A DNA stretch of 64,000 bases from a virus, in the IMG/VR virus record IMGVR_UViG_3300046779_001754, positions 1-64,000 of that record; one strand, given 5' to 3'. Made by a program: the position numbers and the translations under genes. Positions 3,513 to 13,153 of this stretch are shown here, piece by piece. The notes beneath the pieces are model-generated. The model searched no databases, was not told the DNA's origin, and saw only the letters and a list, made by a program, of their open reading frames with translations. Positions within the stretch are counted from its first letter, which is position 1; every line of letters begins with the position of its first letter.

Positions 3513-4367
3513 TTGAAAAAAATATTAATAATCGTATTGGCCGCTCTATGTTTAGTTACTGGTGCCGAAGCAAAACAAAAAAAACATCGGCATCATCACG
3601 TAGCGACAAAAAAAGTCGCAGTGACCAAAACAAAATATAGTTCTGTTCGCACTGTAGCACCAATAAGCATATTGGCGTATGACATCAAATCTCATACCGC
3701 AGTGCATGGATATGCCACTAGTGTTGTGAGGCCAATGGCCAGTTTAACTAAGTTAATGACAGCAATGGTGAGTTTAGATGCCAATCATGACTTACAACAG
3801 TCTGTGAAATATCAAGGACGTTGGGTACCTAGAGAACAATTGTTTCAACGCCTGTTGATTAGAAGTGACAACAGTGTTGCAGAATTCTTGAGTCAAGATT
3901 ACCCTGGCGGTCGAGATGCATTTATCTCAGCGATGAATCACAAGGCAGCACGACTGGCCATGCTTGACACACACTTTGACGACCCCAGTGGTCGCATACA
4001 TACCAATGTCAGCACCGCAGAAGATGTTGGTCGTATGTTAGAAGCTGCACATGGTTATCAAACCATTCGTAGAATTTCAACCTATCAAGATTTAACAACC
4101 ACCACAGTGGTTAAACGACGCAACAAAACCACTATCAATGTTAATCATGCACCAAACACCAACACCATGGTGCTAACTGCTTTCCCTGAAGTGGTAGTAA
4201 GCAAAACTGGTTTTACCAACCCCGCAGGATACTGTGTGGGAGTTGTTGTAGAACAAAATGGACGTACCTATGTAGTAGTTGTCATGGGTGCCCATAATCG
4301 ATATGAAAGATTTGACAAAGTAAAAGATGTCATGTACAATCATATTGTTGCAGCGTCAAACACATAA
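3513..4367 (+). CDS. D-alanyl-D-alanine carboxy/endopeptidase (peptidase S11, PBP7-like), exported
   Basis: Signal peptide; SxxK (ASLTK), SxN (SDN) and KTG motifs; TTG start with GGAG SD. Confidence 0.9.
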   Translation: MKKILIIVLAALCLVTGAEAKQKKHRHHHVATKKVAVTKTKYSSVRTVAPISILAYDIKSHTAVHGYATSVVRPMASLTKLMTAMVSLDANHDLQQSVKYQGRWVPREQLFQRLLIRSDNSVAEFLSQDYPGGRDAFISAMNHKAARLAMLDTHFDDPSGRIHTNVSTAEDVGRMLEAAHGYQTIRRISTYQDLTTTTVVKRRNKTTINVNHAPNTNTMVLTAFPEVVVSKTGFTNPAGYCVGVVVEQNGRTYVVVVMGAHNRYERFDKVKDVMYNHIVAASNT

Positions 4368-7959: not shown

Positions 7960-7983
7960 AAAGCCCACTTCGGTGGGCTTTTT
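7960..7983 (+). terminator. rho-independent terminator
   Basis: AAAGCCCAC-TTCG-GTGGGCTTT plus T-run. Confidence 0.9.
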
Positions 7984-8001: not shown

Positions 8002-8047
8002 GAATCATGATTTTGTAATAATGTTGTAACATTATGATGTTTAAATA
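8002..8047 (+). promoter_or_regulatory. putative Pho box (PhoB site) and -10 element
   Basis: 11-bp periodic heptamers GAATCAT/TTGTAAT/TTGTAAC (consensus CTGTCAT), then 10 nt, then TTAAAT. Confidence 0.7.
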
Positions 8048-8081
8048 ATACTGCATTGCAATAATCATTCAAGGAGATATT

Positions 8082-9107
8082 ATGAATAAACTCGTAGCTA
8101 TTGTAGCTATTTTATTTTCAACAGTGGCATCAGCAGCAGACATCACAGGTGCCGGGGCAACTTTCCCTTACCCAATTTATGCCAAATGGGCCGAAGCATA
8201 CAAAGCAGCAACAGGCATAGGTCTTAACTATCAAAGTATAGGCTCAGGTGGTGGCATTCGTCAAATCAAAGCCAAGACAGTTGACTTTGGTGCAAGCGAC
8301 ATGCCATTGAAACCCGAAGAATTAGATCGCGACGGGTTAGTGCAATTTCCAGCAATTATCGGTGGTGTTGTTCCAGTGGTAAATCTTGATGGTGTAGAAC
8401 CAGGACAATTAAAATTAACAAGTGATGTTGTGGCAGGTATTCATCTAGGTCGAATTACTAAGTGGAACGATCGAGCAATTGTAGAATTAAATCCAGGTGT
8501 TACGCTACCGGCAATCAACATTACCGAAGTACATCGTGCAGATGGTTCAGGTACAACATTTATTTGGACAAATTATCTAAGTAAAGCTAATCCAGAGTTT
8601 GCTAAAGTAATTGGTGAAGGTACAGCAGTTAAATGGCCAGTTGGTGTTGGTGGTAAAGGTAACGAAGGTGTTGCAGCCAATGTACAACGTGTTAAAGGTT
8701 CATTTGGTTACGTTGAATATGCATACGCTAAGAAAAACAAAATTGCATGGGCACAGTTAAAGAATCGTGACGGCCACTTTGTTCAACCAGATGACAGTGC
8801 ATTTAAAGCAGCAGCGTCAGGTGCAGATTGGGCAAATGCTCCAGGCATGTATCTACTATTGACTAATCAAACAGGAAAAGATTCTTGGCCAGCAACTGGT
8901 GCAAGTTTTATTTTAATGCATAAGCAACAAGCAGATGCATTGACAGGTCGTGCTATTCTTAAATTCTTTGATTGGAGTTATCGGAATGGTGCAAAAATGA
9001 GTGAGGAACTTGAATACGTTCATATGCCTCAGTCTGTAATTAAGTTGATTCAAGACAATTGGCGTCGTGACTTCAAAGGGCCTGATGGCATAGCAGTTTG
9101 GAAATAA
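8082..9107 (+). CDS. pstS: phosphate ABC transporter substrate-binding protein PstS
   Basis: GAGATFP, YQSIGSGGG, DFGASD, RADGSGTT. Confidence 0.98.
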   Translation: MNKLVAIVAILFSTVASAADITGAGATFPYPIYAKWAEAYKAATGIGLNYQSIGSGGGIRQIKAKTVDFGASDMPLKPEELDRDGLVQFPAIIGGVVPVVNLDGVEPGQLKLTSDVVAGIHLGRITKWNDRAIVELNPGVTLPAINITEVHRADGSGTTFIWTNYLSKANPEFAKVIGEGTAVKWPVGVGGKGNEGVAANVQRVKGSFGYVEYAYAKKNKIAWAQLKNRDGHFVQPDDSAFKAAASGADWANAPGMYLLLTNQTGKDSWPATGASFILMHKQQADALTGRAILKFFDWSYRNGAKMSEELEYVHMPQSVIKLIQDNWRRDFKGPDGIAVWK

Positions 9108-9112
9108 GAAAC

Positions 9113-9155
9113 TTGACAACTGATAGTTGGAAATGTTACCATTACTGGTTGTCAA
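9113..9155 (+). promoter_or_regulatory. intergenic inverted repeat / possible sigma70 promoter
   Basis: TTGACAAC...GTTGTCAA hairpin; also TTGACA-18-TACCAT. Confidence 0.4.
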
Positions 9156-9172
9156 CAATTTAAGGATTATAT

Positions 9173-10585
9173 ATGAAAACAATTAAGAAATTAGCACTAG
9201 CAGCAACCTTGATGTCTGCATTTGTTGCATCAGCAATAGCAGATGATTACACAGATACGTTGGACATTCTTTTGCAAAAAGGAATACTAACCAAGCAAGA
9301 ACATTCTGCTAAAATTGAAGCACACAAAGATCGTTTGGAGAATACACAATTCAATTCCAGTCGTATCGACAAAGACCTAAGAGATAACAACAATTACCGT
9401 CTAAGTAAAGCGAACGATGGTGCTGTTATGGAAAATGGGTTAGGCATTAAGTCTAAAGATGGTAACACCACTGCGCAGTTTACTGGTCGTATTCATATGG
9501 ATTATAGAAATTACAGTCCAGACTATGCCGCAGGTCAAACTACAGATGGTTACCAAGATGCCATGGAAATGCGTAGAGGTCGTTTTGGTGTACGTGGGCA
9601 GATTGCTCGAGATTTCAAATATCAATTGTTAGCAAACTTTGGTAATGATGTCGGTGCTAGTAGTACATCCAGTACTATCGATGAATTCTGGGTAAACTAT
9701 GATGCCAACCCTGCTGCTCAATTTCAGTTTGGTACATTTAAGATGCCATTCAGTTTGGAACAGTTGACCAGTTCAAACAACATCGATTTCATGGAACGTA
9801 GTTTGGTTGGTCAGAACGACAGCGAATTGATTCCAGCAAAAGAAACCGGTGTAATGATTCATGGTGTTCCTGCTACAGGATTCACTTATGCACTAGCAGC
9901 AAGTCGTGGTCGTGCTAATAAATCTGCCACAGTCGATGGCGCAGATATCATTGGTCGTGTGACTACAAACATTGCTGAAGTGATTCAGAACAAAGACTTT
10001 GTTGCTCACTTAGGTGCTGCATACAGTACAGGCAACATCAAAACTGGTGTTACTGCTGCCAGTGGACGTACCGAAGCACGAAATCAAAGTGCATGGTTCA
10101 CAGGTTCAGCGATGAGTGGTGAAACAGAACGTACACGCCAAGGTCTTGAAGCAGCATTTGCTTGGAAGAATGTAAAGTTACAAGGTGAACAGTTTAATTT
10201 CAAGTATGATCCAACAACAGGTTCAGATCAAGAGATCAAAGGTCACTATGTTCAAGCTGTGTATAATCTAACAGGTGAAAGCCACAACTACAAAAATGGT
10301 ATCTTCAATTGGATCAAACCCAACGCCGCTGTAACCAGTGGTGGTCCAGGTGCATGGCAAGTTGCTGTACGTGCCAGTGAATTCAACGCCGAAGATGTTT
10401 CAGTGGCCACAGGCAAAAGCAATCGTGCTACAGCAATGACCTACGGAGTAACTTGGTTTTGGAACGACAATGTGCGTTTCATGTTAAACTATGTTGACAC
10501 TAAATTTGATGCTCCAGTAGGCACATCAGGTAGTCGTGTAAATGGCGAAAAGGCTGTAATGTTGCGTAGTCAACTTAGTTTCTAA
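9173..10585 (+). CDS. phosphate-selective porin (OprO/OprP family)
   Basis: Signal peptide, RRGRFG, QFGTFKMPFSLEQLTSS..IDFMERS, C-terminal RSQLSF; follows pstS. Confidence 0.9.
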   Translation: MKTIKKLALAATLMSAFVASAIADDYTDTLDILLQKGILTKQEHSAKIEAHKDRLENTQFNSSRIDKDLRDNNNYRLSKANDGAVMENGLGIKSKDGNTTAQFTGRIHMDYRNYSPDYAAGQTTDGYQDAMEMRRGRFGVRGQIARDFKYQLLANFGNDVGASSTSSTIDEFWVNYDANPAAQFQFGTFKMPFSLEQLTSSNNIDFMERSLVGQNDSELIPAKETGVMIHGVPATGFTYALAASRGRANKSATVDGADIIGRVTTNIAEVIQNKDFVAHLGAAYSTGNIKTGVTAASGRTEARNQSAWFTGSAMSGETERTRQGLEAAFAWKNVKLQGEQFNFKYDPTTGSDQEIKGHYVQAVYNLTGESHNYKNGIFNWIKPNAAVTSGGPGAWQVAVRASEFNAEDVSVATGKSNRATAMTYGVTWFWNDNVRFMLNYVDTKFDAPVGTSGSRVNGEKAVMLRSQLSF

Positions 10586-10654
10586 TCAATAAACGTTAAT
10601 TAAATCGGGCGCAAAGATTGGGCGATCACTGGAACCCGTAACCAGTAGCAACAC

Positions 10655-10677
10655 AGGGCTCTTCGGAGCCCTTTTTT
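10655..10677 (+). terminator. rho-independent terminator
   Basis: AGGGCTC-TTCG-GAGCCCT plus T-run. Confidence 0.9.
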
Positions 10678-10719
10678 CATAACCTCGTAACACAGTTGTA
10701 ATATCCAAAGGCTTAAATA
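10674..10719 (+). promoter_or_regulatory. second putative Pho box and -10 element
   Basis: TTTTCAT-aacc-TCGTAAC-acag-TTGTAAT, 10 nt, TTAAAT: same geometry as the pstS box. Confidence 0.65.
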
Positions 10720-10726
10720 TTTTATA

Positions 10727-11545
10727 ATGAAAACATATCGTACCATCTTTATCAGTGACGTTCACTTGGGTACTAAAGATTGCAAAGCCGAAGCTCTCAA
10801 TAATTTTCTAAAACATAACACCTGTGACACGCTGTATCTAGTTGGTGATATAATTGATGCCTGGAAGATAAAACAAAACAAATGGCGTTGGAAGCAAAGT
10901 CATACCAATGTAGTTCGTAGAATTCTAGGACATGCCAAACGCGATACCAGAGTAGTTTATGTACTAGGAAATCACGATGAATTTTTAAGACCATTCCTGC
11001 AGTACAATTTAAATTTTGGTATGGTTGAAATAACCAATCAAATTGAACATATAGGTGCAGATGGCCAACACTATCTAGTTGTACATGGAGATCTGTTTGA
11101 TGGAATCACTAGACTGGCACCATGGTTATCAATGTTAGGAGATCGTGCATATGATTTTATCCTCAGTCTTAACTCTAGATTTAATTGGCTGCGTCATAGG
11201 CTTGGTTTTGGTTATTGGAGTCTTTCTCTTTTTCTTAAGCATAGAGTCAAAAAAGCCGTAGACTTTATATTTCAATTTGAACGTAACTTAGCATTGTATT
11301 GTAAGAAGCGCGGATTTGATGGTGTAATATGCGGACACATACATCATGCAGAAATTAAACTCATAGACGGCGTTGTGTACATGAATGACGGTGACTGGGT
11401 TGAATCAATGACTGCTCTAGTAGAACACCACAGTGGCCGTTGGGAAATTGTAACTTGGATACGGGAGAAGGATGATGTGGTTGATGATATTGATAGCGGT
11501 CAACGCAAGCGATCCAAAGGACATTCCAGCAAAAGTAATGCTTGA
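10727..11545 (+). CDS. PlcP-like metallophosphoesterase (LpxH-like family, P-starvation phospholipase C)
   Basis: SDVHLG, LVGDIID, GNHD, HGDLFD, GHIH, NDGDWVES. Confidence 0.8.
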   Translation: MKTYRTIFISDVHLGTKDCKAEALNNFLKHNTCDTLYLVGDIIDAWKIKQNKWRWKQSHTNVVRRILGHAKRDTRVVYVLGNHDEFLRPFLQYNLNFGMVEITNQIEHIGADGQHYLVVHGDLFDGITRLAPWLSMLGDRAYDFILSLNSRFNWLRHRLGFGYWSLSLFLKHRVKKAVDFIFQFERNLALYCKKRGFDGVICGHIHHAEIKLIDGVVYMNDGDWVESMTALVEHHSGRWEIVTWIREKDDVVDDIDSGQRKRSKGHSSKSNA

Positions 11546-11645
11546 ATTTCCCGATCAGATTACTTGTGAGCATAGTCGACAGTCAATTAGCTATTGGATT
11601 AAATTTGATAACTTTAAGGTTGAAGCTAAATGCGTGAAGAAATGA
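11472..11645 (+). CDS. 57-aa protein with hydrophobic N-terminus and two Cys (not in ORF track)
   Basis: GGAG SD; MMWLMILIAVNASDPKDIPAK...TCEH...AKCVKK; ATGA overlap with the glycosyltransferase. Confidence 0.65.
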   Translation: MMWLMILIAVNASDPKDIPAKVMLEFPDQITCEHSRQSISYWIKFDNFKVEAKCVKK

Positions 11646-12355
11646 TCAAACTTAGTGATCTAATTACTATTGTTGTTCCTTGTAAAAATGAAGAAAATTA
11701 CATTCACCATCTATTAGATTCCTTACGCCTACAAGATATTGGCGGCACTAGAATAATAATTGCAGACTGTTCTACAGATAATACCAGACAAGTTATAAGA
11801 GACAATAGTGCTTTTTTGAATGTAGAAATCATTGAAGGAGGTCCTGTGAGTGTGGCAAAGAATCGCGGAGCTCAATTGGTCACTACACCTTATATTTTGT
11901 TCATTGATGCTGACGTGAGGTTCTTCAATCCCGCTGTTATAAAAGACGCTGTGTTTGCTGTCGAATCAAACAAGTTAGATCTAATTGGGTTGAACATCAA
12001 GTGCTACGACGGTGATTGGAGAACCGTAGTTGGCTTTGCTGCATTTAACTTTGTCAACAACATTTTAAAGCATTTTGCACCGTTTGCTGTGGGTGCGTTT
12101 ATGCTTACCCGCAGGGATAGATTTGAGGAGTATGGTGGATTTCCTGAGAGATTTTCAACCTCAGAAGATTACTTTCTATCTAGACGCTACAGTCCAAAAA
12201 AGTTTCAAATCATCAATCATTACTTTGGACAGGACAGCCGCAGATTTAGAAAAATGGGTTATTTTGGCATGGCTGCATATTTGATCAAAAACTTCATCAA
12301 TCGCAACAATCAATCTTATTGGGACAGCATAGACAACAGCAGATACTGGGCGTAA
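11642..12355 (+). CDS. glycosyltransferase family 2
   Basis: IVVPCKNEE, DCSTDNT, AKNRGA, FIDAD, ED motif. Confidence 0.93.
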   Translation: MIKLSDLITIVVPCKNEENYIHHLLDSLRLQDIGGTRIIIADCSTDNTRQVIRDNSAFLNVEIIEGGPVSVAKNRGAQLVTTPYILFIDADVRFFNPAVIKDAVFAVESNKLDLIGLNIKCYDGDWRTVVGFAAFNFVNNILKHFAPFAVGAFMLTRRDRFEEYGGFPERFSTSEDYFLSRRYSPKKFQIINHYFGQDSRRFRKMGYFGMAAYLIKNFINRNNQSYWDSIDNSRYWA

Positions 12356-12387: not shown

Positions 12388-12513
12388 ATGGATCTGAAAA
12401 AGAACCCCCGTTGGACTAACGCTGCTGAAATTTTTGACATGGTTTTACGAGTTTGCTGGTTTATACTGCTAGTGACTTGGATTCTAGGCGAGCATAAATT
12501 AATTATTCAATAA
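12388..12513 (+). CDS. 41-aa putative membrane peptide (not in ORF track)
   Basis: AAGGTG SD; MDLKKNPRWTNAAEIFDMVLRVCWFILLVTWILGEHKLIIQ. Confidence 0.55.
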   Translation: MDLKKNPRWTNAAEIFDMVLRVCWFILLVTWILGEHKLIIQ

Positions 12514-12514
12514 A

Positions 12515-13153
12515 ATGCCCCCAAAAATTGCTTTGTTTGTACATCAACCACGATGCTCAGTGCAAAGCATAAACGGTATCATACGAGCTCTAACACCGCA
12601 TTACACGTTTAAAATTTTCACACGTCATGACTTAGAATCTGACTTTTTCAACGACGTTGACATGGTCTGCTTTCCCGGCGGCATAGGTGAATCAGACAGC
12701 TATGATTATCTAATGAAGATTCACGCCCAAAACATACGCAATTACGTGGCATCTGGGGGTAGATATCTAGGTATATGCATGGGAGCGTACTGGGCCGATA
12801 CTGACTATTTCGGTTTGCTTGATAACATTAGAGTAATTCAATATATCAAAAGCCCCGGCACCGATACTCGTAGACCACACGCCAAAGAGATGCCAGTGAG
12901 CTGGCGCGGACACGCAACTTCAATGTATTTTTACGATGGCTGCACCTACAATGGAACTGGTTACTGTGACAGAGTGGCCTGGTATCCCAACGGAGATCCC
13001 ATGGCCATCATACAAGATCGAGTGGGATTGTTGGGTTGTCATCCTGAAGCTGACCAACATTGGTACAATAGTTATACATGGATGCGACGTCGTTGGCATG
13101 GCGGCCGGCACAGTTATTTGCTCGAATTTGTTGACTCCTTGATGCAAAACTGA
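12515..13153 (+). CDS. class I glutamine amidotransferase-like (BPL_N-type) protein
   Basis: FPGG, YLGICMGAY nucleophile elbow, HPE. Confidence 0.8.
   Translation: MPPKIALFVHQPRCSVQSINGIIRALTPHYTFKIFTRHDLESDFFNDVDMVCFPGGIGESDSYDYLMKIHAQNIRNYVASGGRYLGICMGAYWADTDYFGLLDNIRVIQYIKSPGTDTRRPHAKEMPVSWRGHATSMYFYDGCTYNGTGYCDRVAWYPNGDPMAIIQDRVGLLGCHPEADQHWYNSYTWMRRRWHGGRHSYLLEFVDSLMQN

What the first reader, a model, noticed from the sequence alone, without database searches (positions are those of the whole stretch)
8002..12355. Pho-box-controlled phosphate scavenging plus membrane-lipid remodelling module in a phage
Seen: pstS and an OprO/P porin, then a PlcP-like phosphoesterase (DWVES motif), a small protein and a GT2. 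Both units have 11-bp-periodic Pho-box-like repeats placed 10 nt before TTAAAT. Established: bacterial PlcP releases diacylglycerol from phospholipids under P starvation, and a glycosyltransferase converts it to P-free glycolipid; phage pstS with Pho boxes is known in cyanophages. Inference: this phage mines host membrane phospholipid for P and backfills with glycolipid, beyond the usual pstS/phoH repertoire.
Basis: partly seen in the sequence, partly recalled or inferred. Interest (0 to 1): 0.8.

Follow-up and report, generated by a model that had tools for sequence, protein, structure and literature searches.

The report
Phage phosphate-uptake and membrane lipid-swap module
A large T4-like phage carries phosphate-uptake genes and a bacterial-type enzyme set that probably strips phosphate from host membrane lipids and replaces them with sugar lipids. 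Both gene sets sit behind repeats that look like the host's phosphate-starvation switch, and I found no paper describing this in a virus.

Summary
On a 100-kb T4-like phage contig, two same-strand units follow groES/groEL.

- **Unit 1:** pstS plus an OprO/P porin.
- **Unit 2:** a PlcP-type metallophosphoesterase, a 56-aa protein and a GT2, with overlapping reading frames.

**The enzyme is PlcP-type, not LpxH.** It scores 42 bits against the LpxH model (cut-off 134). It has GNHD and GDWVES where true LpxH has GNRD. Bacteria that hold a true LpxH keep a separate paralogue of it. Its bacterial relatives sit directly before Agt-type GT4 genes.

**The GT2 fills the Agt slot.** At least 594 viral contigs carry the enzyme. 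In the 80 fetched, the small protein follows it wherever the sequence reaches. The next slot holds the GT2 (35 loci) or an Agt-like GT4 (35 loci), never both. The two alternate at least 13 times on the PlcP tree. The GT2 therefore probably does Agt's job. Its acceptor is inferred, not shown.

**The Pho-box-like repeat is specific and conserved.** It occurs only twice in the contig, before pstS and plcP. Related phages keep it there, exactly 10 nt before xTAAAT. That hexamer is part of TAAATA, which also precedes late genes, so the promoter class is open.

This scan has already noted the same module in at least 27 other genomes. I found no paper on it.

The parts
7960..7983 (+). Stem-loop plus T-run after groEL, which closes the chaperonin unit
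   Evidence: Read from the sequence: a G+C-rich inverted repeat followed by TTTTT.
8013..8030 (+). Pho-box-like direct repeat 1 (TTGTAAT-N4-TTGTAAC, 11-bp period)
   Evidence: The homologous position upstream of pstS holds the same repeat in 16 of 24 distinct related phage promoters, 14 of them exactly 10 nt before xTAAAT.
8040..8047 (+). TTTAAATA, the promoter core (NNTAAATA class). A 34-nt leader with an AAGGAG Shine-Dalgarno follows.
8082..9107 (+). pstS, periplasmic phosphate-binding protein
   Evidence: NF008171 equivalog 420.7 bits (cut-off 339) and TIGR00975 378 bits. Best of 400 sampled Burkholderiales genomes is 73% identical.
9113..9142 (+). Sigma-70-like promoter match (TTGACA-18-TACCAT) in the pstS-porin spacer. 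A consensus match only.
   Evidence: sequence.
9173..10585 (+). OprO/OprP-family phosphate-selective outer-membrane porin
   Evidence: PF07396 1.6e-48, 166 bits. N-terminal signal-like segment. Follows pstS in about 24 of the related loci.
10602..10645 (+). Copy of a two-hairpin element that in sister phages lies 5-6 nt before the plcP ATG. Here hairpin 2 (10629-10645) is intact and hairpin 1 is degraded.
   Evidence: No Rfam family matched.
10655..10672 (+). Intrinsic-terminator-like stem-loop plus T-run, which ends the pstS-porin unit
10685..10702 (+). Pho-box-like direct repeat 2 (TCGTAAC-N4-TTGTAAT)
   Evidence: A matching repeat lies upstream of plcP in 39 of 69 distinct related promoters.
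10712..10719 (+). CTTAAATA promoter core, 7 nt before the plcP ATG. There is no Shine-Dalgarno, so the mRNA is probably leaderless.
   Evidence: The portal gene has the same layout (GGTAAATA, 7 nt, ATG).
10727..11545 (+). PlcP-type metallophosphoesterase (predicted phospholipase C that releases diacylglycerol)
   Evidence: PF00149. LpxH equivalog 41.6-41.9 bits against cut-off 134. Motifs DVH, GDIID, GNHD, HGD, GHIH and GDWVES are intact. Tree and paralogy. Bacterial relatives precede agt.
11475..11645 (+). 56-aa phage-specific protein (MWLMILIAVH...C...C). It overlaps the plcP 3' end by 71 nt and has its own GGAGAAGG Shine-Dalgarno.
   Evidence: Present after plcP in every related locus where the sequence reaches it. 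8 invariant residues, including two Cys. AlphaFold2 model at pLDDT 89 shows strand-strand-helix-strand. No Pfam or PHROG hit and no convincing fold match.
11630..12355 (+). GT2 (GT-A fold) glycosyltransferase, with DAD and ED motifs. Inferred to be a diacylglycerol glycosyltransferase. The start may be the second ATG at 11642, which overlaps the small ORF's TGA.
   Evidence: PF00535 3.4e-18. Invariant D93/D95 and E179/D180. Model pLDDT 84; best PDB matches are generic GT-A enzymes. Occupies the slot that an Agt-like GT4 fills in sister phages.

Best explanation
This is a phage-borne phosphate-stress module made of two transcription units.

**Unit 1** (Pho-box-like repeat, pstS, OprO/P porin, terminator) raises phosphate capture across the outer membrane and periplasm. 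It feeds the host's own Pst transporter.

**Unit 2** (Pho-box-like repeat, plcP, 56-aa protein, GT2, with overlapping frames) is a viral version of the bacterial PlcP-Agt lipid-renovation pathway.
1. PlcP cleaves the phospho-head group from membrane phospholipids and leaves diacylglycerol.
2. The glycosyltransferase converts diacylglycerol into a phosphorus-free glycolipid, so the membrane holds until lysis.
3. The released phosphate esters become available for phage DNA synthesis.

**What is shown:** gene identities, the PlcP rather than LpxH clade, operon layout, conservation in hundreds of phages, GT2/GT4 alternation, and the repeat's specificity and fixed spacing.

**What is inferred:** phospholipase C activity, diacylglycerol as the GT2 acceptor, PhoB binding, and timing. 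The role of the 56-aa protein is unknown. My best guess is a PlcP-bound accessory or regulator, because it always travels with the viral plcP whichever transferase follows.
For: - **Phage origin:** structural and late-transcription genes lie on the same contig.
- **pstS and porin:** both score above curated cut-offs.
- **PlcP, not LpxH:** 42 bits against a cut-off of 134. Three bacterial genomes hold both a true LpxH (288-339 bits) and a homologue of the phage protein (28-45 bits). In the tree, the phage clade (support 100) nests among alphaproteobacterial homologues and is separated from LpxH by a branch of about 3.7 changes per site. The PlcP group has GNHD and GDWVES where LpxH has GNRD.
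- **Bacterial synteny:** in L012, L015, L023, L027 and L030 the bacterial relative is directly followed by a GT4. That is the published plcP-agt arrangement (PMC4796936, PMC8528852, PMC13691135).
- **Spread in phages:** at least 594 viral contigs encode the enzyme at 77-89% identity.
- **Transferase slot:** in 74 informative loci it holds the GT2 (35) or a GT4 that is 36-43% identical to a bacterial Agt (32 adjacent, 3 one gene away). No locus has both and 4 have neither. At least 13 switches occur on the PlcP tree, including among the window's closest relatives.
- **Repeat specificity:** it occurs twice in 100 kb, at the two phosphorus-related units. 52 of 75 matches in related loci lie upstream of plcP or pstS, at a fixed 10-nt spacing. 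In L109 and L116 a perfect copy precedes a second metallophosphoesterase.
- **Host-type sites:** the pstS promoters of the nearest Burkholderiales genomes carry TGTCAT- or TGTAAC-type 11-bp repeats 10 nt before a -10-like hexamer.
- **Precedents:** cyanophage genes with Pho boxes bind host PhoB (PMC10976474). The isolated Pelagibacter phage Mosig has a plcP homologue transcribed divergently from its pstS.
Against: - No activity, expression or binding data exist for any part.
- No experimentally characterised PlcP sequence could be placed in the tree. Orthology rests on synteny and on exclusion from LpxH.
- The GT2 is not related to Agt. It had no close homologue in 400 alphaproteobacterial genomes. 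Its fold matches only generic GT-A enzymes that act on teichoic acid, polyprenyl phosphate or oligosaccharides.
- Four related phages have plcP and the small protein with no transferase. Phage Mosig also has none. Backfilling is therefore not obligatory.
- The element 10 nt after the repeat belongs to the TAAATA class, which also precedes late structural genes. Expression could be late and constitutive.
- About 30 related phages replace the repeat before plcP with a hairpin element, or carry the repeat inverted.
- Predicted phage Pho boxes are unreliable without an EMSA (PMC10976474).
- No phosphatase that would free orthophosphate from the released head groups lies in this window.
Confidence: 0.68

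Rival explanations
1. PlcP supplies phosphorus, but the GT2 has a different acceptor, such as LPS, a polyprenyl phosphate, a phage protein or DNA. Diacylglycerol is then handled by host enzymes. The GT2 sits next to plcP only because this region is a hot spot for accessory genes.
For: - The GT2 is unrelated to Agt.
- The nearest curated model is TIGR04283, at 61 bits against a cut-off of 182.
- Its PHROG match is a weak GtrB-like hit.
- Fold matches are TarS, DPMS and GtrB types.
- Some phages carry plcP with no transferase.
- Other accessory genes (nuclease, PhoH, ATP-grasp) also land beside plcP.
Against: - GT2 and Agt-like GT4 are mutually exclusive in the same slot, 35 against 35 with none holding both.
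- Both overlap the small ORF's stop codon.
- They switch repeatedly between near-identical plcP genes.
- GT-A-fold glycolipid synthases next to plcP are known in bacteria (arrangement types 3 and 5 in PMC4796936).
Confidence: 0.15
2. The module remodels the host envelope for the phage's own protection or timing, for example to block superinfection by changing receptors or to tune lysis. Phosphorus economy is not the purpose.
For: Lipid remodelling changes membrane proteins and phage attachment in bacteria (PMC9804370, PMC9938194). The TAAATA core would allow late expression regardless of phosphate.
Against: - The module is tightly linked with pstS, a phosphate porin, and in sister phages PhoH, a nuclease and a second phosphoesterase.
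- The repeat is shared only with pstS.
Confidence: 0.08
3. The repeats are not PhoB sites. They bind a phage-encoded or other host regulator, or merely accompany late promoters, so the module is not phosphate-gated.
For: - TAAATA also precedes late genes.
- Inverted and palindromic variants of the repeat occur in some related phages, which is unusual for PhoB.
- The warning in PMC10976474 applies.
Against: - The repeat is found only at phosphorus-related genes, in this contig and in relatives.
- Its 7+4+7 layout, 11-bp period and 10-nt spacing match the published Pho-box consensus CTGTCAT-N4-CTGTCAT (PMC8528852).
- The same layout is seen in the pstS promoters of the nearest bacteria.
Confidence: 0.15
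4. The enzyme is a viral LpxH that acts in lipid A synthesis, as database annotation says.
For: Source annotations name it LpxH. GenBank records for phages Mosig and S-SRM01 do the same. An AMG survey lists a viral lpxH (PMC9611531). Solved LpxH structures match the N-terminal half weakly, at E about 3e-4.
Against: - It is far below the LpxH equivalog cut-off.
- It has GNHD rather than GNRD.
- It is a separate paralogue in genomes that hold LpxH.
- Its alphaproteobacterial relatives sit next to agt.
Confidence: 0.02

Closest known systems
Bacterial PlcP-Agt lipid-renovation operon: Phaeobacter MED193 and SAR11 HTCC7211 (PMC4796936); P. aeruginosa PA3219-PA3218 (PMC8528852); B. cenocepacia plcP-agt-dagK (PMC13691135); S. 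meliloti SMc00171 (my own knowledge)
   Same: - A PlcP-clade metallophosphoesterase is followed directly by a glycosyltransferase.
- A Pho-box-type repeat lies upstream.
- Sister phages carry an Agt-like GT4 that is 36-43% identical to a bacterial Agt.
   Different: - It is encoded by a phage.
- A conserved 56-aa gene, absent from the bacterial loci examined, is inserted between the two enzymes.
- In this phage the GT4 is replaced by an unrelated small GT2.
- There is no dagK.
- The mRNA is probably leaderless, from a TAAATA-type promoter.
Cyanophage pstS/phoA and other genes under host PhoBR control (S-PM2d, PMC10976474; P-SSM2 as cited there)
   Same: A T4-like phage carries pstS behind a host-type Pho box. 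The logic is that the phage reads the host's phosphate status.
   Different: The repeat here is of the TGTAAY type, not the cyanobacterial PyTTAAPyPy(T/A) type. The module adds an outer-membrane porin and a lipid-remodelling unit, which those papers do not report.
LpxH (UDP-2,3-diacylglucosamine diphosphatase)
   Same: Same metallophosphoesterase superfamily, with a weak N-terminal match. This is the name given by automatic annotation.
   Different: It fails the equivalog cut-off, has GNHD rather than GNRD, and is a separate paralogue and clade.
Pelagibacter phage Mosig EXVC030M gene Mosig_00120 (MT647606) and Synechococcus phage S-SRM01 homologue
   Same: These are isolated T4-like phages with a PlcP homologue (47.5% and 39% identity). 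In Mosig it is transcribed divergently from pstS, with TTAACA-type 11-bp repeats between them.
   Different: Both are annotated as LpxH. No glycosyltransferase is adjacent. The small overlapping ORF in Mosig shows no visible similarity to the 56-aa protein.
Phage-encoded oprP in freshwater amoC-phages (bioRxiv 10.64898/2026.06.18.733297)
   Same: A phosphate-selective porin gene in large freshwater phages.
   Different: That preprint does not mention pstS, lipids, LpxH or glycosyltransferases. No relative of this window's porin was found among deposited phage genomes.
GT-A-fold glycolipid synthases next to plcP (processive glycosyltransferase of Mesorhizobium, arrangement types 3 and 5 in PMC4796936)
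   Same: A GT-A-type transferase lies downstream of plcP. The window's GT2 has a weak Pfam GT21 match at 9e-6.
   Different: The window's GT2 is much shorter (241 aa). No specific relation was shown.

Membership tests
PlcP (Pho-regulated phospholipase C of the metallophosphoesterase superfamily) | Intact metallophosphoesterase metal-binding motifs | tested here: met
   DVH, GDIID, GNHD, HGD and GHIH are all present and are invariant in the phage clade. PF00149 matches.
PlcP (Pho-regulated phospholipase C of the metallophosphoesterase superfamily) | Forms a clade apart from LpxH and coexists with LpxH as a paralogue | tested here: met
   GDWVES is shared with 24 of 31 bacterial homologues, whereas LpxH differs.
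PlcP (Pho-regulated phospholipase C of the metallophosphoesterase superfamily) | Groups with experimentally characterised PlcP (SMc00171, PA3219, the MED193 enzyme, BCAL2364) | not tested
   None of these sequences could be obtained by reference with the tools. The proxy is that bacterial relatives in the same clade are followed by agt.
PlcP (Pho-regulated phospholipase C of the metallophosphoesterase superfamily) | Phospholipase C activity on PE, PG or PC that yields diacylglycerol | not testable with these tools
   Needs an enzyme assay or lipidomics.
LpxH | Score above the NCBIfam equivalog cut-off (NF003743, 134 bits; TIGR01854, 190 bits) | tested here: not met
   41.6 and 28.9 bits; 41.9 bits. 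True LpxH in G001-G003 scores 288-339 bits.
LpxH | GNRD in place of GNHD | tested here: not met
   The phage protein has GNHD. The two above-cut-off LpxH sequences that entered the alignment have GNRD; the third was lost in extraction.
Agt (GT4 glycolipid glycosyltransferase of the PlcP pathway) | GT4 / GT-B two-domain architecture (PF13439 plus PF00534) | tested here: not met
   The window's enzyme is GT2 with a GT-A fold. Sister phages do carry such a GT4 in the same slot.
Agt (GT4 glycolipid glycosyltransferase of the PlcP pathway) | Transfers a sugar to diacylglycerol | not testable with these tools
   Inferred only from the mutually exclusive occupancy of the slot.
PhoB-dependent (Pho-box) promoter | Two 7-nt direct repeats with an 11-bp period resembling CTGTCAT-N4-CTGTCAT | tested here: met
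   the consensus is quoted in PMC8528852. The half-sites are T(T/C)GTAA(T/C), so 5 of the 7 consensus positions are matched in three of the four half-sites and 4 in the fourth.
PhoB-dependent (Pho-box) promoter | The box replaces the -35 element and ends about 10 nt before the -10 element | tested here: inconclusive
   The spacing is exactly 10 nt and is conserved. The downstream element is TAAATA, which is also used by late genes and is a poor sigma-70 -10.
PhoB-dependent (Pho-box) promoter | Binding by phosphorylated PhoB and induction on phosphate starvation | not testable with these tools
   The host is unknown.
PstS | Score above the equivalog cut-off | tested here: met
   NF008171 420.7 bits against 339; TIGR00975 377.9 bits against 205.
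OprO/OprP phosphate-selective porin | Pfam PF07396 above the gathering score, plus an N-terminal export signal | tested here: met
   166.3 bits against 20.9. A hydrophobic N-terminus ending in an Ala-X-Ala-type site was read. Anion selectivity is not testable here.

The most novel reading that the evidence does not exclude
Large freshwater phages run their own phosphate-gated lipid swap. A host PhoB signal switches on a leaderless viral operon. The viral PlcP acts with an obligatory, previously unknown 56-aa partner. One of two interchangeable transferases completes the swap, and the small GT2 would then be a new kind of diacylglycerol glycosyltransferase. Host membrane phospholipid thereby becomes phage DNA phosphorus. 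A further possibility is that PhoB acts on a promoter whose core is the phage's own late-type TAAATA element.
Probability: 0.4. Interest if true: 0.8.

Novelty: new variant of a known kind. Interest (0 to 1): 0.7.

Why it matters
Known phage phosphorus genes (pstS, phoA, phoH) act on uptake or have an unknown role. A viral PlcP-glycosyltransferase pair would add a second strategy: mining the host's own membrane.

As a rough estimate from my own knowledge, membrane phospholipid holds about as much phosphorus as one to a few host chromosomes. That would supply several to tens of genomes of a 200-kb phage.

The module is common, with at least 594 viral contigs, and it is currently filed as LpxH under lipopolysaccharide synthesis. 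Viral AMG surveys therefore misreport it.

It also offers three things to test:
- a cheap gain-of-function lipidomics test in E. coli;
- a natural experiment in which GT2 and GT4 replace each other;
- an uncharacterised 56-aa protein tied to PlcP.

Tried and rejected
**LpxH reading.** Rejected.

**Acceptor of the GT2 from sequence or fold.**
- NCBIfam gave only sub-threshold hits.
- The protein atlas listed viral and assorted bacterial GT2 clusters.
- Foldseek against the PDB returned only generic GT-A enzymes.
- 400 alphaproteobacterial genomes held nothing above 28% identity.

**The 56-aa protein.** There was no Pfam or PHROG hit. Foldseek found nothing at E <= 0.001. The wide structural search gave at best Z 5.4 (PurS, MzrA), which is within the noise range stated by the tool. 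The small ORF after plcP in phage Mosig shows no visible similarity to it.

**Rfam for the hairpin element.** No match.

**Pho boxes upstream of bacterial plcP relatives.** Only 9 of 32 had a loose match within 200 nt, so this is uninformative.

**Other box-preceded genes.** Two ORFs had no family. One was a ribonucleotide reductase, behind a two-mismatch box about 120 nt away, and I give it no weight.

**Literature.** No paper describing a phage plcP or phage-driven lipid renovation was found.

- One script call was lost.

Full report
**What the DNA is.** The window is the first 64 kb of a 100,171-bp linear virus record that CheckV rates about 17% complete. The rest of the contig encodes a portal, major head protein, T4-type late sigma factor, baseplate hub/lysozyme and a gp46-like nuclease. 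This is a large T4-like phage. Upstream of the finding lie eleven tRNA genes, dnaK, a tmRNA and groES/groEL. Earlier notes of this scan call the phage freshwater; I did not verify the habitat.

**Genes.**
- pstS (8082-9107) passes two equivalog cut-offs.
- The next gene (9173-10585) is an OprO/P porin by Pfam.
- 10727-11545 is a calcineurin-type metallophosphoesterase.
- 11630-12355 is a GT2.
- Between them lies a small ORF. Its conserved start is the ATG at 11475, giving 56 aa, preceded by GGAGAAGG inside the plcP coding frame.
- plcP and the small ORF overlap by 71 nt. The small ORF and the GT2 overlap by 16 nt, or by an ATGA overlap if the second ATG is used.
- A stem-loop with a T-run follows groEL and another follows the porin. 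There are therefore two units: pstS-porin and plcP-small ORF-GT2.

**PlcP or LpxH.**
- The enzyme scores 41.6-41.9 bits against the LpxH equivalog model, whose cut-off is 134.
- Solved LpxH structures match only the N-terminal half, at E about 3e-4.
- Three beta/gammaproteobacterial genomes that carry a homologue of the phage protein also carry a true LpxH (288-339 bits). The homologue itself scores 28-45 bits there. Two alphaproteobacterial genomes have only the homologue.
- In a FastTree of 44 sequences the phage proteins form one clade (support 100). It lies inside alphaproteobacterial homologues, next to Hyphomonadaceae-type and Parvularcula sequences at up to about 60% identity. A branch of about 3.7 changes per site separates the two LpxH sequences from everything else.
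- All phage and bacterial homologues have GNHD, and most have GDWVES. The LpxH sequences have GNRD and a different C-terminal motif.
- In five bacterial loci the gene directly downstream is a GT4 with Glyco_transf_4 and Glycos_transf_1 domains. That is the plcP-agt arrangement shown experimentally to make glucosyl and glucuronosyl diacylglycerol under phosphate stress (PMC4796936, PMC8528852, PMC13691135).
- I could not place an experimentally characterised PlcP in the tree, so orthology is by synteny and exclusion.

**Spread and anatomy in other phages.** At least 594 viral contigs encode the enzyme at 77-89% identity, and 80 were fetched. The nearest bacterial sequences are about 60% identical. 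A 65% match comes from a 5.6-kb contig binned as Bacteroidia that also carries the small ORF, so it is probably phage DNA.
- The small ORF follows plcP wherever the sequence reaches. None of the bacterial loci has it.
- Directly after it comes either the GT2 (35 loci) or a 330-340-aa GT4 (32 adjacent, 3 with one gene between) that is 36-43% identical to the Agt of an Emcibacter MAG (L015). No locus has both, and four have neither.
- On the PlcP tree the state changes at least 13 times, of which at least 3 are forced by well-supported branches. The window (GT2), L039 (GT2) and L040 (GT4) are nearest neighbours.
- This repeated in-place exchange is the main argument that the GT2 does Agt's job. 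It is an inference.
- The GT2 has its DxD (DAD) and ED motifs invariant and a confident GT-A model. Neither fold search, curated models, the protein atlas nor 400 alphaproteobacterial genomes say what it glycosylates.

**The 56-aa protein.** Thirty-seven distinct sequences share 8 invariant residues, including two cysteines. The model (pLDDT 89) is a strand-strand-helix-strand unit with no convincing structural or family match. Its function is unknown. Its fixed linkage to the viral plcP, whichever transferase follows, points to a role with PlcP.

**The repeats.**
- In 815 kb of related loci, YTGTAAY-N4-YTGTAAY with at most one mismatch occurs 75 times. Of these, 34 lie 23-45 nt before the plcP start and 18 lie 41-86 nt before the pstS start, all in sense orientation.
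- The gap to xTAAAT is exactly 10 nt in 25 of 39 plcP sites (the rest at 20-21 nt) and in 14 of 16 pstS sites.
- In two related loci a perfect copy precedes a second metallophosphoesterase.
- Of 12 pstS promoters from the Burkholderiales genomes most similar to the phage PstS (best 73% identity), most have TGTCAT-type boxes and three have TGTAAC-type boxes. The latter show the same 10-nt gap to a -10-like hexamer. One unpublished genome, G784, was among those searched. None of the 12 promoters read comes from it; it enters only the tally of genomes with a pstS match, and no other claim rests on it.
- The layout fits the published consensus CTGTCAT-N4-CTGTCAT (PMC8528852).

**A correction to the promoter reading.**
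- The hexamer TAAATA is 12.5 times denser in non-coding than in coding DNA of this contig.
- It lies upstream of the portal gene (7 nt before its ATG), four other large presumed structural genes (two with virion-protein PHROG hits), dnaK (as TATAAATA), pstS and plcP.
- It matches the last six bases of the T4 late promoter TATAAATA (my own knowledge).
- In plcP promoters of this type the ATG follows TAAATA after 4-8 nt with no Shine-Dalgarno, so the mRNA would be leaderless. pstS has a normal leader.
- Good sigma-70 consensus promoters exist nearby for other genes, so the host-type -10 is TATAAT, which TTAAAT fits poorly.
- Whether PhoB drives early sigma-70 transcription from a weak overlapping -10, modulates a late-type promoter, or does neither cannot be told from sequence. 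PMC10976474 shows that predicted phage Pho boxes can fail.

**Variants.** About 30 related phages have no repeat directly before plcP. Instead they have a conserved two-hairpin element ending 5-6 nt before the ATG. Six of its 10 predicted pairs show compensatory changes, and no Rfam family matches it. The window keeps a partly degraded copy after the porin stop, cut off from plcP by the terminator and the repeat-bearing promoter. Some relatives carry the repeat inverted.

**Prior knowledge.** Cyanophage pstS under PhoB control is established (PMC10976474). Phage oprP was reported in a 2026 preprint on amoC-phages, which does not mention pstS or lipid genes. Deposited phages Mosig and S-SRM01 carry homologues annotated as LpxH, and a Lake Baikal survey lists a viral lpxH under lipopolysaccharide synthesis. 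PHROGs has no family for the enzyme, the porin or the small protein. I found no paper on a phage plcP or on phage-driven lipid renovation. This scan has already noted the same module in at least 27 other genomes. My tests here were run independently of those notes.

**Verdict.** It is a new, phage-borne variant of a known bacterial pathway.

Noticed in passing
window 10602-10645; L041:5935-6000 and 23 other related loci: A conserved two-hairpin element (AAATCGGTCAC...GTGAC, then CTGG-ANCCGTAA-CCAG) ends 5-6 nt before the plcP ATG in many sister phages. No Shine-Dalgarno is present, compensatory changes occur in both stems, and no Rfam family matches. It may be a processing or translation signal that yields a leaderless mRNA.
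   Followed up: partly
whole contig; e.g. window 570, 8040, 10712; contig 94111 (portal), 80071, 71252, 91709, 96193: TAAATA is 12.5 times denser in non-coding than in coding DNA and precedes late structural genes. This is probably the phage's late-type promoter core. The portal gene, like plcP, has its ATG 7 nt after it, which suggests a leaderless mRNA.
   Followed up: partly
window 8051-8062 and the pstS leaders of L039, L101, L108, L110 and others: A short palindrome (TGTGCAATGCACA-like; TGCATTGCA in the window) is kept between the promoter core and the pstS Shine-Dalgarno in many related phages.
   Followed up: no
window 9108-9172: The pstS-porin spacer holds a sigma-70 consensus match (TTGACA-18-TACCAT) inside an 8-nt inverted repeat (TTGACAAC...GTTGTCAA). 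The porin may also be expressed on its own.
   Followed up: no
L109:7907-8868 and L116 (same positions): A perfect CTGTAAC-N4-CTGTAAC box after the Agt-like GT4 precedes a second metallophosphoesterase of 272 aa. It is a candidate enzyme for the released head groups.
   Followed up: partly
L070:7398-8216, L106:2212-3063, L059:7540-8256, L066:2069-2959: In sister phages, a DNA/RNA non-specific endonuclease, PhoH or a RimK-like ATP-grasp gene follows the plcP-small ORF pair in place of the transferase, or (the ATP-grasp gene, L066) lies between the pair and the GT4.
   Followed up: partly
window 12388-13153: A 41-aa ORF and a 212-aa protein with a BPL_N / class-I amidotransferase-like domain follow the GT2 with no terminator between. 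The 212-aa gene is a frequent neighbour of plcP in related phages. Its role is unknown.
   Followed up: no
L131:4850-5001 (Pelagibacter phage Mosig): The divergent pstS/plcP spacer holds 11-bp-periodic TTTAACA/CTTAACA repeats. This is a different, host-specific Pho-box flavour in an isolated phage in which PhoB binding could be tested.
   Followed up: no
window 3513-4367: A D-Ala-D-Ala carboxypeptidase (Peptidase_S11) gene lies between the tRNA clusters, behind a GCTAAATA motif.
   Followed up: no
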